This document shows, one piece after another, positions 8,508 to 11,405 of a DNA stretch of 64,000 nucleotides. The notes under the pieces are model-generated. The model was not told the DNA's origin and did no database searches. It worked only from the letters and a program-made list of their open reading frames with translations. The DNA lies in contig CAVTNQ010000002.1 in NCBI GenBank assembly GCA_963736125.1, forward strand, positions 292,989 through 356,988, in the 5' to 3' direction. Source of the DNA: Candidatus Latescibacterota bacterium (lineage in GTDB: Bacteria; Krumholzibacteriota; Krumholzibacteriia; WVZY01; JAKEHA01). How positions within the stretch are numbered: position 1 is the stretch's first letter; every line of letters begins with the position of its first letter. The position numbers were made by a program, and so were the translations under genes.

Positions 8508-9762
8508 ATGGCGTCGGCGCCCGGCGGCAGCATTCGATTCTGGCTGAAGGGATACCTGTTCCTCGGCGTGGCCGTGCTCATCCTGGCCATGCTGATCTAC
8601 TCCAATCATCTCATCGAACGCATGCGCGAGAACTCCGAGGCGACCAGCCGCCTGTTCTCGCGCTACATGGAAAACGTCATCTTCGAGGTGACCGACGACG
8701 GCCGCCTGGCCAACCTGCGCACCGTCATTCGCGAGACCGACCTCCCCATCATCATCACCGTGCTCGACGGCGTACCCATTCTGTGGAACCACGTGCCGGT
8801 CGAAGAACGCACGGCGGAAGACTTCAGCCTGATCGAGTCGATCGACGCTCGACGTGGACATCCGCCCAACGAGAAGTTTCGCAAGCTGGTCGACCTGTAT
8901 CGTGAGTTCGACAAGAAGAACGCGCCCATTCCCATTCGCGTGGTCGGTGCCAGCGAACCCTCGGGTTGGGTGCACTACGGACCGTCGCCGCTGCAACGCG
9001 AGTTGCGCTACATGCCGTTCGTGCTGCTCGGCATATTCTTGATCTTCATGGCCGTCGCGATTCAAGGGCTTCGTTATCTCAAGTTGAGCGAGCAACGGTC
9101 CATCTGGGTCGGGCTCGCGAAAGAGACCGCGCATCAACTCGGCACACCACTCTCCGCGATGCTCGGTTGGGTGCAGGTCATCAAAGACAAAGCTGCCGAC
9201 AAGGGTTACGACGACATCCGCGGATCTATCGAAGAGATGGAAGTCGACCTCGGACGTTTGAACAAAGTCACCGATCGTTTCAGCAAAATTGGTTCGACGC
9301 CGGACTTGGTCGAAGTCGACTTGAGGCGCGTGCTCGAGAACACCGTCGCGTATTTCCAGAAACGACTCCCCAGCCTCAAATCCAAGTCGGCCATCTCGCT
9401 CGTGGTGGGCGACATCGCGCGCGTGCGCGGCAACGAAGAGCTGCTCGAGTGGGTGTTCGAGAACTTGATCAAGAACGCCATTGACGCGCTCGGCGAAGCC
9501 GGCGGCCAAATCGAGATTCGCGCCGCCAATGACGCTGGCAGCAAGTTCGTCGACGTCACCGTACACGACACCGGCCGCGGCATTCCCGGGCGCACTGCGC
9601 GACGACGTGTTCCGCCCCGGCTTCACCACCAAACGCCGCGGCTGGGGCCTGGGCCTCGCCCTCGCGCGCCGCATCGTCGAGGAATACCACGGCGGCTCCA
9701 TCAAACTCGTCGAATCACGCCCCGGCAAGACGACGTTCTTGGTGAGACTGCCGGCTGCCTAG
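8508..9762 (+). CDS. Sensor histidine kinase, PorY-like, with a +1 frameshift near 9585-9595 (C/G homopolymer)
   Basis: Two TM helices flank a periplasmic domain; HisKA H-box ETAHQLGTPLSAMLGW; HATPase N-box NLIKNAIDA and G1 HDTGRGIPG in frame 0; the G2 end of the ATPase (GFTTKRRGWGLGLALARRIVEEYHGG) continues in the next frame (ORF 9481..9762). Confidence 0.75.
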
Positions 9763-9856
9763 CGCGCAGCCCTCCCGCCTTGATGCCCGCGTCCGCGGGC
9801 CTTATACTCCCAGCACACCATGACTGCAGTCTCATTCCCGCATTCTTTCTAGTTCT

Positions 9857-11405
9857 ATGGCTAACAAACGCATTCTTTGGGTCGACGACGAGATCGAGCT
9901 GCTGAAGTCGCATGTGATGTTCCTGCGCGACAAGGGCTACGACGTCCAAACCGCCACCAACGGGACGGACGCCGTGAACCTGGTCAAGGAGGGGCGCTTC
10001 GACATCATGCTGCTGGACGAGTCGATGCCGGGGCGCGGCGGGCTGGAGACGTTGGTCGAGATCAAGGAATCCGACCCGGTGCTTCCGATCGTGATGATCA
10101 CGAAGAACGAGGAAGAGCGGCTGATGGACAACGCGATCGGGATGAAGATCGACGACTACTTGCTGAAGCCGGTCTCGCCGCTGCAAATCTACTCGGCCTG
10201 CAAGCGCATCTTGGACGCGCCCAAGATCCAGGAGAACCGGCTCTCGCCGGACTACATCAAAGAGTTCAACGAGATCAATACGCTGGTGCAAGAAGGAACG
10301 TGGGACGCGTGGCTGCGCGTGCACCGGCGCATGTGCGCGTGGGACCGGGAATTCGACCAGTTCCGTAACAGCGGACTGGATTCGACGCACGACGACCAGA
10401 AGCTGAACACGGCGCATCACTTCGGGCTCTTCGTCGAAAAGAATTATCGCGACTGGGTGGCCTCCGACAAACGACCGCCGATGAGCCTCGACGTGTTCCC
10501 GCGTTTCATCGCGCCGCATTTGCTCAAGGGCGAGAGGCTGTGCTTCATCCTGGTCGACTGCGTGCGCTTGGATCAGTGGATCGCGATCGAAGATTTCCTC
10601 TCGGAGCAGTTCGACGTGCAGTGGGACTATCTATTGCTCGATCCTTCCCACCGCCACACCGTACTCGCGCAACGCGATCTTTAGCGGTCTGTTCCCCGAC
10701 GACATCGCGCGCCGCTACCCCGACAAGTGGCTCGAGCGCATCAACGAAGATTCGAGCAAGAACAAGTTCGAATCCTTCTTCATGGGCGAGCAGATGAAGA
10801 AGCTGAAACTCGACGAATCGAAGATGCGCTACATGAAGATTCACACCGCGCAGGAAGCGGGGGACGCGCGCAAGCGGGTGGCCTCGCTCATGACCTCGCC
10901 CTTCGTGTCGCTGGTGTTCAACTTCGTCGACATTCTCACCCACGGTCGCAACCAGTCGGACATCCTGCAGCAGCTCTTGCCGAACGAGAGTGCGTTCCGC
11001 TCGCTCATGCGCTCGTGGTTCTCGCACTCGGTCCTGCGCGATATTCTCTCCGACCTCGCGCGCGCCAAAGTGAAGGTGATTCTCACCACCGACCATGGGT
11101 CGATCCTGGGCCGCAAGGCGGCGCTCGTGTACGGACGCCGCGACACCTCGACCAACCTGCGCTACAAGTTCGGCGACAACCTGAAGTGCGATGAAAAGCA
11201 AGCCATCATCGCCCGCAAGCCGTCGGAGTTTCGTTTGCCGTCGGAGTCGGGGACGAAGAACTACATTTTCGCGAAGGAATATTTCTACTTCGTTTACCCG
11301 ACCAACTTCCGCGACTACGAGAAGGCCTACGAGGGAAGCTTCCAACACGGCGGCGTTTCCCTCGAGGAGATGATCCTCCCCTGCCTCACCTTGACACCGC
11401 GCTAG
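9857..11405 (+). CDS. Response regulator with C-terminal PglZ (alkaline-phosphatase-like) domain, PorX-like; frameshift near 10640-10650
   Basis: N-terminal CheY-like REC (ILWVDDE...IMLLDESMPG...KPV); the PglZ signature [14 protein letters not shown] is readable in the alternate frame just upstream of the ORF-track stop at 10684; the PglZ C-terminal motif HGGVSLEEMILP is present; the two ORFs 9857..10684 and 10782..11405 together give about 516 aa, which is PorX-sized. Confidence 0.7.

What the first reader, a model, noticed from the sequence alone, without database searches (positions are those of the whole stretch)
8508..11405. Adjacent PorY-like sensor kinase and REC-PglZ (PorX-like) response regulator: a candidate master regulator of a type IX secretion system outside Bacteroidetes
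The regulator at 9857..11405 joins a CheY-like receiver to a PglZ/alkaline-phosphatase-fold domain (the [14 protein letters not shown] and HGGVSLEEMILP signatures), and is about 516 aa. This is the architecture and size of Porphyromonas gingivalis PorX, and the upstream two-TM kinase resembles PorY. In P. gingivalis the two genes are unlinked; here they sit side by side. The same window encodes at least two secreted hydrolases with T9SS-type C-terminal sorting domains. PglZ is otherwise best known from BREX defence, so annotation pipelines frequently mislabel PorX-like proteins. Both genes carry apparent 1-nt frameshifts, which must be resolved before concluding they are functional.
Basis: partly seen in the sequence, partly recalled or inferred. 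Interest (0 to 1): 0.7.

Follow-up and report, generated by a model that had tools for sequence, protein, structure and literature searches.

The report
Linked PorY–PorX secretion regulator genes
Two neighbouring genes in a Krumholzibacteria genome encode clear relatives of the PorY sensor kinase and PorX regulator that control type IX protein secretion in Porphyromonas; this is a known system in a related group of bacteria, and the two "frameshifts" are almost certainly assembly errors.

Summary
Window 8508..9762 encodes a two-TM sensor histidine kinase and 9857..11405 a REC+PglZ regulator. Each is broken by one extra base (G at 9588, A at 10629).

After repair the regulator is 515 aa. It scores 629 bits on NCBIfam's PorX equivalog (cutoff 300) and aligns end to end with the solved PorX structures. 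It keeps the phospho-Asp and all seven metal/catalytic residues. BREX PglZ models score far below their cutoffs.

I recovered P. gingivalis porY from metagenome contigs. The kinase aligns with it end to end (32% identity, sensor domain included), so it is a PorY orthologue.

A 99%-identical contig lacks both extra bases. The two PorX copies differ by 25 synonymous and 1 non-synonymous codons. The adjacent essential genes tsaE and tsaB are also frame-broken in the window. The frameshifts are therefore most likely assembly errors.

The closest named homologues are Candidatus Krumholzibacteria. This lies outside Bacteroidota but inside the FCB superphylum, where T9SS and PorX are already reported.

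The modest new point is linkage. porY sits directly upstream of porX in 17 of 80 FCB loci sampled, all non-Bacteroidota by label. A tsaE/UbK gene follows porX in at least 42 of 73.

T9SS core genes could not be checked. Verdict: a new member of a known kind.

The parts
8508..9762 (+). porY-like sensor histidine kinase. It is 417 aa once the extra base at 9588 is removed. TM1 spans about 12-32, followed by a periplasmic loop of about 135 aa and TM2 at about 168-190. The DHp histidine is H209 and the C-terminus is an HATPase_c domain. The start lies 4 nt after the serS stop.
   Evidence: It aligns end to end with P. gingivalis PorY (32% identity over 411 aa, E 5e-64). More than 100 intact homologues of 413-420 aa were found, several named Candidatus Krumholzibacteria.
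9588..9588 (+). Extra G in a ccc/ggg run that breaks the kinase reading frame.
   Evidence: It is absent from the 99%-identical contig L002. Removing it restores ...DTGRGIPGALRDDVFRPGFTTKRRGWGLGL..., the G1/F/G2 boxes of the ATPase domain.
9763..9856 (+). 94-nt spacer between porY and porX. It holds a weak sigma-70-like match (TTGATG-17-TATACT, 9780-9808) and no terminator-like site.
   Evidence: These are consensus matches only. The fold is no more stable than shuffled sequence (z 0.56).
9857..11405 (+). porX orthologue, 515 aa once the extra base at 10629 is removed. It consists of a REC domain (phospho-acceptor D54), a helical linker and a PglZ/alkaline-phosphatase-fold domain. The nucleophile is T267. 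The metal ligands are D234, D358, H362, D412, H413 and H497.
   Evidence: NCBIfam NF052313 scores 629 bits against a cutoff of 300. It differs from L002's PorX by 25 synonymous and 1 non-synonymous codons.
10629..10629 (+). Extra A that breaks the porX reading frame nine codons before the catalytic Thr.
   Evidence: It is absent from L002. Removing it gives ...[26 protein letters not shown]..., identical to the homologues.
11408..11880 (+). tsaE / UbK-family gene directly downstream of porX, also frame-broken in the window (a T is missing at 11719). The end coordinate is approximate. It is listed because P. gingivalis UbK1, of the same family and in the same position, phosphorylates PorX.
   Evidence: Pfam TsaE matches the truncated 111-aa ORF. 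The gene is intact at 155 aa in L002. Indels are listed. The same adjacency is seen in at least 42 of 73 loci. Literature: PMC13241743.
23634..26003 (+). Candidate T9SS cargo: a 789-aa protein with a signal peptide and a type-A C-terminal sorting domain. No catalytic domain was recognised.
   Evidence: TIGR04183 scores 32.2 bits against a cutoff of 23. Pfam Por_Secre_tail and FlgD_ig hits are weak. The N-terminus is shown.
59843..62128 (-). Candidate T9SS cargo: an M14 zinc carboxypeptidase with a MAM-like domain, a type-A C-terminal sorting domain and a signal peptide.
   Evidence: Pfam Peptidase_M14 scores 216 bits. TIGR04183 scores 25.1 bits against a cutoff of 23. The N-terminus is shown.

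Best explanation
This is the PorY/PorX two-component system of a Krumholzibacteria bacterium (FCB superphylum), encoded as neighbouring, probably co-transcribed genes within a co-directional string hemC-serS-porY-porX-tsaE-tsaB-rimI. The two 1-nt insertions are consensus errors of an error-prone metagenome assembly. In the cell both genes are intact.

Proposed mechanism (inferred):
1. The membrane kinase senses a periplasmic cue through its loop of about 135 aa. In P. gingivalis the ligand is the C-terminal domain of the T9SS cargo PorA.
2. The kinase autophosphorylates on H209 and passes the phosphate to D54 of PorX.
3. Phospho-PorX dimerises. This switches on its Zn-dependent PglZ phosphodiesterase (nucleophile T267), which cleaves oligonucleotides.
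4. PorX then acts on the T9SS, through the PorL/GldL motor and/or an ECF sigma factor. This tunes secretion of CTD-tagged proteins such as the two encoded in this window.

Shown here: domain architecture, orthology to PorX and PorY, conservation of every catalytic and phospho-acceptor residue, gene linkage, purifying selection, and the presence of CTD cargo genes.

Inferred from P. gingivalis and F. johnsoniae work: phosphotransfer, dimerisation, phosphodiesterase activity, and control of T9SS.
For: PorX identity:
- NF052313 equivalog scores 629 bits against a cutoff of 300, covering residues 5-515 and profile positions 2-513 of 513.
- It aligns over its full length with the solved PorX structures 8ted, 8p6f and 7pv7 at E about 1e-125.
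- D58, T272, D239, D361, H365, D415, H416 and H500 of P. gingivalis PorX (PMC9757075) are all conserved. So are R276, N358 and the dimer-interface residues S385 and S389.

PorY identity:
- 32% identity over 411 aa with P. gingivalis PorY, spanning TM1, the sensor loop, TM2, DHp and CA.
- The layout matches published PorY: 395 aa, TM segments at 14-36 and 149-173, H193 (PMC5005315). Here: 417 aa, TM segments at about 12-32 and 168-190, H209.
- An HMM of 21 PorX-adjacent kinases scores PorY at 344 bits over the full length, against 61-74 bits for four other kinases in the same loci. A sensor-only HMM still hits PorY at 63.9 bits and none of the decoys.

Linkage:
- The same kinase lies 23-215 nt upstream of porX in 17 of 80 genome loci, and 0.9-5.5 kb upstream in 4 more.
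- The labels on those loci include Latescibacteria, Eisenbacteria, Zixibacteria, Ignavibacteriales, Fibrobacteraceae and Gemmatimonadetes.
- Many Krumholzibacteria contigs of 5-30 kb appear to carry homologues of both genes, judged from matching contig lengths.

Frameshifts as errors:
- L002, 99.0% identical, lacks both insertions.
- All listed homologues (more than 100 for each protein) are intact apart from a few truncated or partial entries.
- PorX differs from L002's copy by 25 synonymous and 1 non-synonymous codons.
- tsaE and tsaB, normally essential genes (my own knowledge), are also frame-broken within the same 2.5 kb.
- L002 carries its own breaks in serS.
- Mismatches to L002 are concentrated in 9.9-13.9 kb. 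This pattern would fit mixed-strain consensus errors (inference).

T9SS context:
- Two TIGR04183 CTD proteins lie in the window. FlgD_ig-type C-terminal tails occur on large proteins in the flanks.
- sprA/sov lies directly upstream of porX in 10 other FCB loci (TIGR04189, 826 bits).
Against: - No T9SS core gene (porK/L/M/N, sprA, porV, porU) lies in the 64-kb window or in about 10 kb of upstream flank. The rest of the genome could not be searched, so co-occurrence with a T9SS in this organism is unproven.
- No read data are available, so a real, very recent frameshift in this strain cannot be strictly excluded. The insertion at 10629 is not in a homopolymer.
- Even in P. gingivalis the PorY-to-PorX pairing and the route from PorX to T9SS are debated. 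PMC9757075 notes little phenotypic overlap between the porX and porY mutants.
- Taxon labels on the compared MAGs are the submitters' own. Some ('Limnocylindria', 'Poribacteria', 'Chlorobiaceae') may be wrong.
Confidence: 0.85

Rival explanations
1. The frameshifts are real. In this strain porY and porX (and tsaE and tsaB) are recently inactivated pseudogenes, so the regulator is not made.
For: The window sequence as given contains both insertions. The one at 10629 is not in a homopolymer, so it is not a classic homopolymer sequencing error.
Against: - A 99%-identical contig has neither insertion.
- PorX shows 25 synonymous and 1 non-synonymous differences from that contig, so there is no sign of decay.
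- This reading would need four consecutive genes broken within 2.5 kb, including tsaE and tsaB. Those genes are essential in most bacteria (my own knowledge).
- The comparison contig has its own, different breaks in serS. This points to error-prone consensus sequence in both assemblies.
Confidence: 0.05
2. The REC-PglZ protein is a phage-defence (BREX-type) PglZ phosphatase, or a mislabelled relative of one, and has nothing to do with secretion.
For: The PglZ domain is shared with BREX. Weak hits exist to BREX_PglZ_3 (100 bits) and to PADLOC PglZ models (up to 78 bits).
Against: - Those scores are far below the BREX model's cutoff of 250 bits and cover only the C-terminal half of the BREX profiles. 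The PorX model scores 629 bits over its full length.
- The protein is 515 aa and carries a REC domain. BREX PglZ proteins are at least 600 aa (PMC9757075).
- No BREX partner families appear among the neighbours.
- The locus is a conserved housekeeping neighbourhood, not a defence island.
Confidence: 0.02
3. The pair is a genuine PorY/PorX orthologue pair, but in this lineage its main output is not T9SS control. It could instead act in oligonucleotide or nanoRNA turnover, or in signalling tied to the tsaE/UbK-tsaB-rimI genes that follow it.
For: - porX is followed directly by a tsaE/UbK-family gene in at least 42 of 73 FCB loci.
- P. gingivalis UbK1 phosphorylates PorX without affecting gingipain export (PMC13241743).
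- PorX cleaves oligonucleotides in vitro and lacks a DNA-binding domain (PMC9757075).
- No T9SS core gene is linked to it in this window.
Against: - The UbK1 target, Tyr79, is Val75 here.
- sprA is the immediate upstream neighbour of porX in 10 other FCB loci.
- PorX is reported to co-occur with T9SS in every species carrying T9SS components (PMC9757075, PMC10951265).
- CTD cargo genes are present in this window.
Confidence: 0.08

Closest known systems
PorX of Porphyromonas gingivalis (PGN_1019; PDB 7PV7) and PorX of Flavobacterium johnsoniae (Fjoh_2906; PDB 8TED, 8P6F)
   Same: It has the same three-part architecture (REC, helical bundle, PglZ/alkaline-phosphatase domain) and the same length class (515 aa against 518). 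Identity is about 40% over the full length. The phospho-Asp, the Thr nucleophile, all Zn ligands and the dimer-interface serines are identical. It passes NCBIfam's PorX equivalog model.
   Different: The host is a Krumholzibacteria-like bacterium, not a Bacteroidota. The gene sits directly downstream of its kinase instead of about 1000 genes away (PMC5005315). Tyr79, the UbK1 target in P. gingivalis, is Val75 here. No function has been tested.
PorY of Porphyromonas gingivalis (PGN_2001)
   Same: It has two TM helices enclosing a periplasmic loop, with the DHp histidine about 20 residues after TM2, no HAMP or PAS domain, and an HATPase_c domain. Identity is 32% end to end, including the sensor region. 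The H-box is nearly identical (KETAHQLGTP).
   Different: The protein is 417 aa against 395, with a periplasmic loop about 20 residues longer. It is encoded next to porX. Whether it senses a cargo CTD, as PorY senses PorA (PMC12152298), is unknown. NCBIfam returned no dedicated PorY model for the kinase (best match AtoS, 110.8 bits against a cutoff of 646).
BREX-3 PglZ (NF033449)
   Same: It shares the PglZ/alkaline-phosphatase fold and metal-binding residues. PMC9757075 describes BREX-3 PglZ as the closest non-PorX relative.
   Different: It scores only 100 bits against a cutoff of 250. It has a REC domain in place of the BREX N-terminal region and is at least 85 aa shorter. No BREX partner genes are nearby.
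UbK1 (TsaE/YdiB family) encoded downstream of porX in P. gingivalis (PMC13241743)
   Same: A TsaE-family gene follows porX immediately in the window, starting 3 nt after the porX stop. The same holds in most FCB loci examined.
   Different: Here the gene continues into tsaB-rimI, the usual t6A-synthesis cluster. The adjacency may therefore reflect old synteny rather than signalling. The PorX tyrosine phosphorylated by UbK1 is not conserved.

Membership tests
PorX (NCBIfam NF052313, T9SS response regulator signal transducer) | Score above the curated equivalog cutoff, over the full length | tested here: met
   629.1 bits against a cutoff of 300, covering residues 5-515 and profile positions 2-513 of 513.
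PorX (NCBIfam NF052313, T9SS response regulator signal transducer) | N-terminal CheY-like receiver with a phospho-acceptor Asp | tested here: met
   Pfam Response_reg scores 88 bits. D54 aligns with D58 of P. gingivalis PorX. D10/D11, T82 and K104 are also present.
PorX (NCBIfam NF052313, T9SS response regulator signal transducer) | C-terminal PglZ/alkaline-phosphatase domain with a Thr nucleophile and two-Zn ligands, in a protein of 500-530 aa | tested here: met
   T267, D234, D358, H362, D412, H413 and H497 are all conserved (residue list from PMC9757075). The protein is 515 aa. It aligns over its full length with 7pv7 and 8ted.
PorX (NCBIfam NF052313, T9SS response regulator signal transducer) | Host belongs to the FCB superphylum | tested here: met
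   The named homologues at 68-91% identity are Candidatus Krumholzibacteria. Krumholzibacteriota is placed in the FCB superphylum in PMC10936416. NCBI taxonomy lists the phylum directly under Bacteria.
PorX (NCBIfam NF052313, T9SS response regulator signal transducer) | Co-occurrence with T9SS core genes (porK/L/M/N, sprA, porV, porU) in the same genome | not testable with these tools
   Only the window and about 10 kb of flank were reachable, and none of these genes is there. Indirect support: two TIGR04183 CTD proteins in the window, and sprA next to porX in 10 other FCB loci.
PorX (NCBIfam NF052313, T9SS response regulator signal transducer) | Binds PorL/GldL and is needed for T9SS output | not testable with these tools
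   This needs experiments.
PorY (P. gingivalis PGN_2001-type sensor kinase) | Two TM helices around a periplasmic loop, directly followed by DHp and CA, with no HAMP or PAS domain | tested here: met
   TM segments lie at about 12-32 and 168-190, and the histidine is H209. HisKA and HATPase_c are the only sensor-kinase domains found; the other Pfam hits are overlapping GHKL-ATPase families. PorY itself has TM segments at 14-36 and 149-173 and H193 (PMC5005315).
PorY (P. gingivalis PGN_2001-type sensor kinase) | Sequence homology to PorY that includes the sensor domain | tested here: met
   BLASTP gives 32% identity over 411 aa, E 5e-64, residues 10-415 against 14-389. A sensor-only HMM hits PorY at 63.9 bits and no decoy. 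The full HMM scores 344 bits against 61-74 bits for decoys.
PorY (P. gingivalis PGN_2001-type sensor kinase) | Cognate phosphodonor of PorX | tested here: inconclusive
   Only gene linkage could be tested. The kinase is adjacent in the window (94-nt gap), and in 17 of 80 loci, with 4 more nearby. Phosphotransfer itself was not tested.
BREX PglZ | Score above the BREX PglZ model cutoffs | tested here: not met
   BREX_PglZ_3 scores 100 bits against a cutoff of 250. The best PADLOC PglZ hit is 78 bits and covers only the C-terminal part of the profile.
BREX PglZ | Encoded with BREX partners (brxC, pglX and others) | tested here: not met
   The neighbours are hemC, serS, tsaE, tsaB, rimI, PNP, accD and folC. 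No BREX partner families appear in the window annotation.

The most novel reading that the evidence does not exclude
porY-porX-tsaE/ubK may be an ancestral three-gene signalling cassette of the FCB superphylum. On this reading Bacteroidota, where the system was discovered, later scattered it: porY moved away, and in some lineages sprA moved in upstream of porX.

If so, the conserved operon in uncultured phyla would be independent genomic proof that PorY is PorX's cognate kinase. That point is still disputed in P. gingivalis. It would also suggest that PorX integrates both His-kinase and UbK-type inputs across the superphylum.
Probability: 0.4. Interest if true: 0.45.

Novelty: new member of a known kind. 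Interest (0 to 1): 0.3.

Why it matters
For annotation: these are intact PorY and PorX genes. They should not be called pseudogenes, and the regulator should not be labelled a BREX PglZ.

For biology: the finding adds Krumholzibacteria to the FCB lineages that carry the T9SS regulator. I found no paper in the searched library that links this phylum to T9SS.

The side-by-side arrangement is repeated in at least 17 genomes labelled as six or more other non-Bacteroidota FCB lineages. It gives comparative-genomic support for the PorY-PorX pairing. Until now that pairing has rested on in-vitro work in P. gingivalis, where the genes are about 1000 genes apart, and one group has questioned it. This is useful but incremental: the family, its structure and its FCB-wide spread are already published.

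Tried and rejected
- Repair position. I first repaired porX by deleting the C at 10631, giving ...DYYCS.... Alignment with L002 showed the extra base is the A at 10629, giving ...DFYCS.... Search results are unaffected.
- PorY model. NCBIfam returned no dedicated PorY hit for the kinase; the best match was AtoS at 110 bits, far below its cutoff. PDB gave only generic kinase cores. I therefore took a porY cloning primer from the supplement of PMC5005315 and used it to pull P. gingivalis porY out of metagenome contigs. This worked.
- T9SS core genes. I annotated the whole window and about 10 kb upstream on contig_81987 and found none. The look-up tool reported a contig longer than 1 Mb carrying identical proteins but did not return it. 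Once sprA had been found in other loci, no remaining tool could search a Krumholzibacteria genome with it, because the protein search lists only the 120 closest hits.
- Literature. Searches for Krumholzibacteriota plus T9SS or type IX secretion returned nothing. A wider search for T9SS in named FCB phyla was uninformative.
- Promoter, terminator and RNA folding in the porY-porX spacer. Only a weak sigma-70-like match was found, with no terminator and no stable structure. This was not used as evidence.
- Programmed frameshifting or phase variation. Considered and dropped, because neither site is shifted in L002 or L001, nor in any listed homologue apart from a few partial entries.
- Structure prediction. 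Not run, because 40% full-length identity to solved PorX structures makes it unnecessary.
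Full report
**1. What is in the sequence**

The window has about 64% G+C. ORF listing shows two co-directional genes on the + strand. One starts at 8508, 4 nt after the serS stop, and ends at the stop at 9760-9762. The other starts at 9857 and ends at 11405. 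Each changes reading frame once.

After removing one base from each, Pfam finds HisKA (weak) plus HATPase_c in the first product (417 aa). It finds Response_reg plus PglZ in the second (515 aa). The kinase has two strongly hydrophobic segments, at about 12-32 and 168-190, and its H-box histidine is H209.

**2. The frameshifts**

An identical AccD protein led to ENA contig ERZ25039502:contig_81987 (183 kb; loci L002 and L003). This contig is 99.0% identical to window 3936..24843, with 171 mismatches and 36 gap positions. Base-by-base comparison gives the following:

| Position in window | Difference from L002 | Effect |
|---|---|---|
| 9588 | extra G (ccc[g]gg) | breaks porY |
| 10629 | extra A (gact[A]tct) | breaks porX |
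| 11719 | missing T | breaks tsaE |
| 11964-12058 | net +2 bases | breaks tsaB |

In L002 both porY and porX are uninterrupted at these two sites. There the regulator is called as a 515-aa gene, and tsaE (155 aa) and tsaB (243 aa) are intact. L002 in turn has its own extra bases that split serS into two pieces. Pfam and tblastn confirm that tsaE and tsaB are truncated or shifted in the window.

Once the A at 10629 is removed, the window's porX differs from L002's at 26 codons. Of these, 25 are synonymous and 1 is not (I242L). For the last 300 codons of the kinase the split is 5 to 1. That is the signature of genes under purifying selection, not of decaying pseudogenes.

A more distant relative (L001, GCA_973789195.1; PorX 90% identical) has both genes intact. 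So do all but a few truncated or partial entries among the more than 100 database homologues listed for each protein.

Four consecutive broken genes within 2.5 kb include two that are essential in most bacteria (my own knowledge). They lie where mismatches to L002 are concentrated: 113 of 171 fall in 9.9-13.9 kb. This is best explained by consensus errors in a strain-heterogeneous region of an error-prone assembly. Without reads it cannot be proven. I give real inactivation about 5%.

**3. Identity of the regulator**

- The repaired protein scores 629 bits on NCBIfam NF052313, 'T9SS response regulator signal transducer PorX' (equivalog, cutoff 300), over the whole profile. The next family, BREX_PglZ_3, scores 100 bits against a cutoff of 250.
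- PADLOC PglZ models give at most 78 bits, on the C-terminal part only.
- Against the PDB it aligns over its full length with F. johnsoniae PorX (8ted, 8p6f) and P. gingivalis PorX (7pv7), at E about 1e-125 and about 40% identity.
- I took the functional residues from Schmitz et al. 2022 (PMC9757075). The phospho-acceptor (D58 in P. gingivalis, D54 here), the nucleophile (T272, T267 here), and Zn ligands D239, D361, H365, D415, H416 and H500 are all conserved. So are R276, N358 and the dimer-interface residues S385 and S389.

It is a PorX orthologue, not a BREX PglZ. The neighbours are housekeeping genes, with no BREX partners.

**4. Identity of the kinase**

NCBIfam returned no dedicated PorY hit. 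The kinase hits only generic kinase cores, and the PDB likewise.

Published PorY (PGN_2001) is 395 aa, with TM segments at 14-36 and 149-173, a periplasmic loop of about 115 aa, and H193 (PMC5005315). This is the same layout as the window protein.

To compare sequences, I took the porY cloning primer from that paper's supplement. I used it as an exact pattern on metagenome contigs, which returned five P. gingivalis-like contigs. The ORF around the match is the 395-aa PorY. BLASTP against the window kinase gives 32% identity over 411 aa, E 5e-64. The alignment runs from TM1 through the sensor loop, TM2, a near-identical H-box (KETAHQLGTP) and the ATPase domain.

I then built an HMM from 21 kinases found next to porX in non-Bacteroidota genomes. 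It scores PorY at 344 bits over the full length. Four other histidine kinases from the same loci score 61-74 bits, on the catalytic core only. An HMM of the sensor region alone still finds PorY (63.9 bits) and none of the decoys. The kinase is therefore a PorY orthologue.

**5. Organism and distribution**

The closest named homologues of both proteins are from 'Candidatus Krumholzibacteria' MAGs: up to 91% identity for PorX and 89% for the kinase. Krumholzibacteriota is placed in the FCB superphylum (PMC10936416). NCBI taxonomy lists it directly under Bacteria.

The best 80 loci carry the following labels: Latescibacteria, Eisenbacteria, Zixibacteria, KSB1, Calditrichaeota, Ignavibacteria, Chlorobiota, Cloacimonadota, Marinimicrobia, Gemmatimonadota, Fibrobacteraceae and Bacteroidota.

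[quoted passage not shown] It also agrees with reviews that describe T9SS as an FCB-superphylum trait (PMC11205867, PMC12421860, PMC9170169). 'Outside Bacteroidetes' is true but not unexpected.

**6. Linkage**

In P. gingivalis porX and porY are about 1000 genes apart (PMC5005315). In the window they are 94 nt apart. Among the 80 genome loci:

| Position of the PorY-like kinase | Loci |
|---|---|
| 23-215 nt upstream of porX | 17 |
| 0.9-5.5 kb upstream | 4 |
| Absent, with at least 1.5 kb of upstream sequence available | 51 |
| Locus too short to tell | 8 |

- The 17 adjacent loci are labelled Latescibacteria, Eisenbacteria, Zixibacteria, Ignavibacteriales, Fibrobacteraceae, Gemmatimonadetes, 'Poribacteria' and unnamed.
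- The 51 loci without a kinase include every locus with a Bacteroidota-type label.
- L001 resembles the 'nearby' group. It has a 607-aa family-less gene on the opposite strand between the two genes.
- Matching contig lengths suggest that many short Krumholzibacteria contigs carry both genes.

Two further linkages turned up:
- sprA/sov, the T9SS translocon (TIGR04189, 826 bits), is the immediate upstream neighbour of porX in 10 loci.
- A tsaE/UbK-family gene follows porX immediately in at least 42 of 73 loci, as it does in the window.

The second point connects with a 2026 paper showing that P. gingivalis UbK1, a TsaE-family kinase, is encoded downstream of porX in 81 strains and phosphorylates PorX on Tyr79 (PMC13241743). 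That tyrosine is Val75 here.

I found no paper in the searched library that describes porY-porX adjacency outside Bacteroidota, or that links Krumholzibacteriota with T9SS.

**7. T9SS context in this genome**

Two window proteins with signal peptides pass the TIGR04183 type-A CTD cutoff:
- a 789-aa protein with no recognised catalytic domain (23634..26003);
- an M14 carboxypeptidase (59843..62128, minus strand).

Further FlgD_ig-type C-terminal tails occur on large proteins just outside the window.

No T9SS core component is encoded in the window or in the flank I could reach.

**8. How it most likely works**

By homology, the sequence of events would be:
1. The membrane kinase senses a periplasmic signal. 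In P. gingivalis this is the CTD of the cargo PorA (PMC12152298).
2. It phosphorylates itself on H209 and transfers the phosphate to D54 of PorX.
3. Phospho-PorX dimerises. This activates its Zn-dependent phosphodiesterase towards oligonucleotides (PMC9757075).
4. PorX engages the PorL/GldL motor (PMC5005315, PMC10951265) and/or an ECF sigma factor (PMC4800418) to adjust T9SS activity.

Shown here: architecture, orthology, residue conservation, linkage and selection. Inferred: every biochemical step and the T9SS output.

The main biological rival is that the pair's principal role in this lineage lies elsewhere, in oligonucleotide turnover or in signalling linked to tsaE/UbK. I give this about 8%.

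**9. Verdict**

This is a new member of a known kind.

The one modestly new point is that the porY-porX operon, usually followed by tsaE, recurs in non-Bacteroidota FCB lineages. This supports PorY as PorX's cognate kinase. Interest: 0.3.

Noticed in passing
window 11408-12617: tsaE and tsaB, directly downstream of porX, are also frame-broken in the window. A T is missing at 11719, and there is a net +2 bases between 11964 and 12058. Both genes are intact in the 99%-identical contig L002. Mismatches to L002 are concentrated in 9.9-13.9 kb (113 of 171), which suggests a strain-heterogeneous, poorly polished stretch.
   Followed up: yes
window 11408-11880; loci L005-L083: A tsaE/UbK-family gene lies immediately downstream of porX in at least 42 of 73 FCB-superphylum loci, including several labelled Bacteroidota. 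A 2026 paper (PMC13241743) reports this adjacency only within P. gingivalis strains and shows that UbK1 phosphorylates PorX on Tyr79. That residue is Val75 in the window protein.
   Followed up: partly
L018, L020, L023, L026, L027, L033, L034, L039, L047, L067 (upstream of the PorX match, about 1-5950): The T9SS translocon gene sprA/sov (TIGR04189, 826 bits for L034:107-5929) is the immediate upstream neighbour of porX in 10 loci, labelled Ignavibacteria, Melioribacter, 'Chlorobiaceae' or Bacteroidetes. None of these loci has the PorY-like kinase nearby.
   Followed up: partly
L001 8073-9896 (-): In the 90%-identical relative (GCA_973789195.1), a 607-aa gene with no Pfam or NCBIfam match sits on the opposite strand between porY and porX. 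Loci L006, L008, L017 and L045 also have 0.9-5.5 kb between the two genes.
   Followed up: partly
window 44795-55890: Four tandem genes encode Ser/Thr protein kinases of about 900-1000 aa. Their C-terminal regions carry PD40/WD40-like beta-propeller repeats. The last one instead carries an FGE-sulfatase domain and a dienelactone-hydrolase-like domain.
   Followed up: no
window 38032-43365: A single 1777-codon open frame combines a TamA-like N-terminus (POTRA plus a partial Omp85 barrel) with a TamB C-terminal domain. It could be a real fusion, or two genes merged by another assembly error.
   Followed up: no
window 29463-30833: This ORF has a receiver domain followed by HisKA but no HATPase domain, and it ends 16 residues after the HisKA match. 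Its first 260 codons overlap another good-looking ORF (29242-30021) in a different frame. This may be another frame error.
   Followed up: no
L002 3378-4572 (= window 7236-8504): The comparison contig ERZ25039502:contig_81987 has its own extra bases, at the equivalents of window positions 7329 and 7863. They split serS into 218-aa and 189-aa pieces. Both assemblies of this population therefore carry scattered single-base errors.
   Followed up: yes
window 21366-22826: A multihaem cytochrome (Cytochrome_C554 and MtrC/MtrF-like hits) lies next to the first CTD-tagged protein.
   Followed up: no
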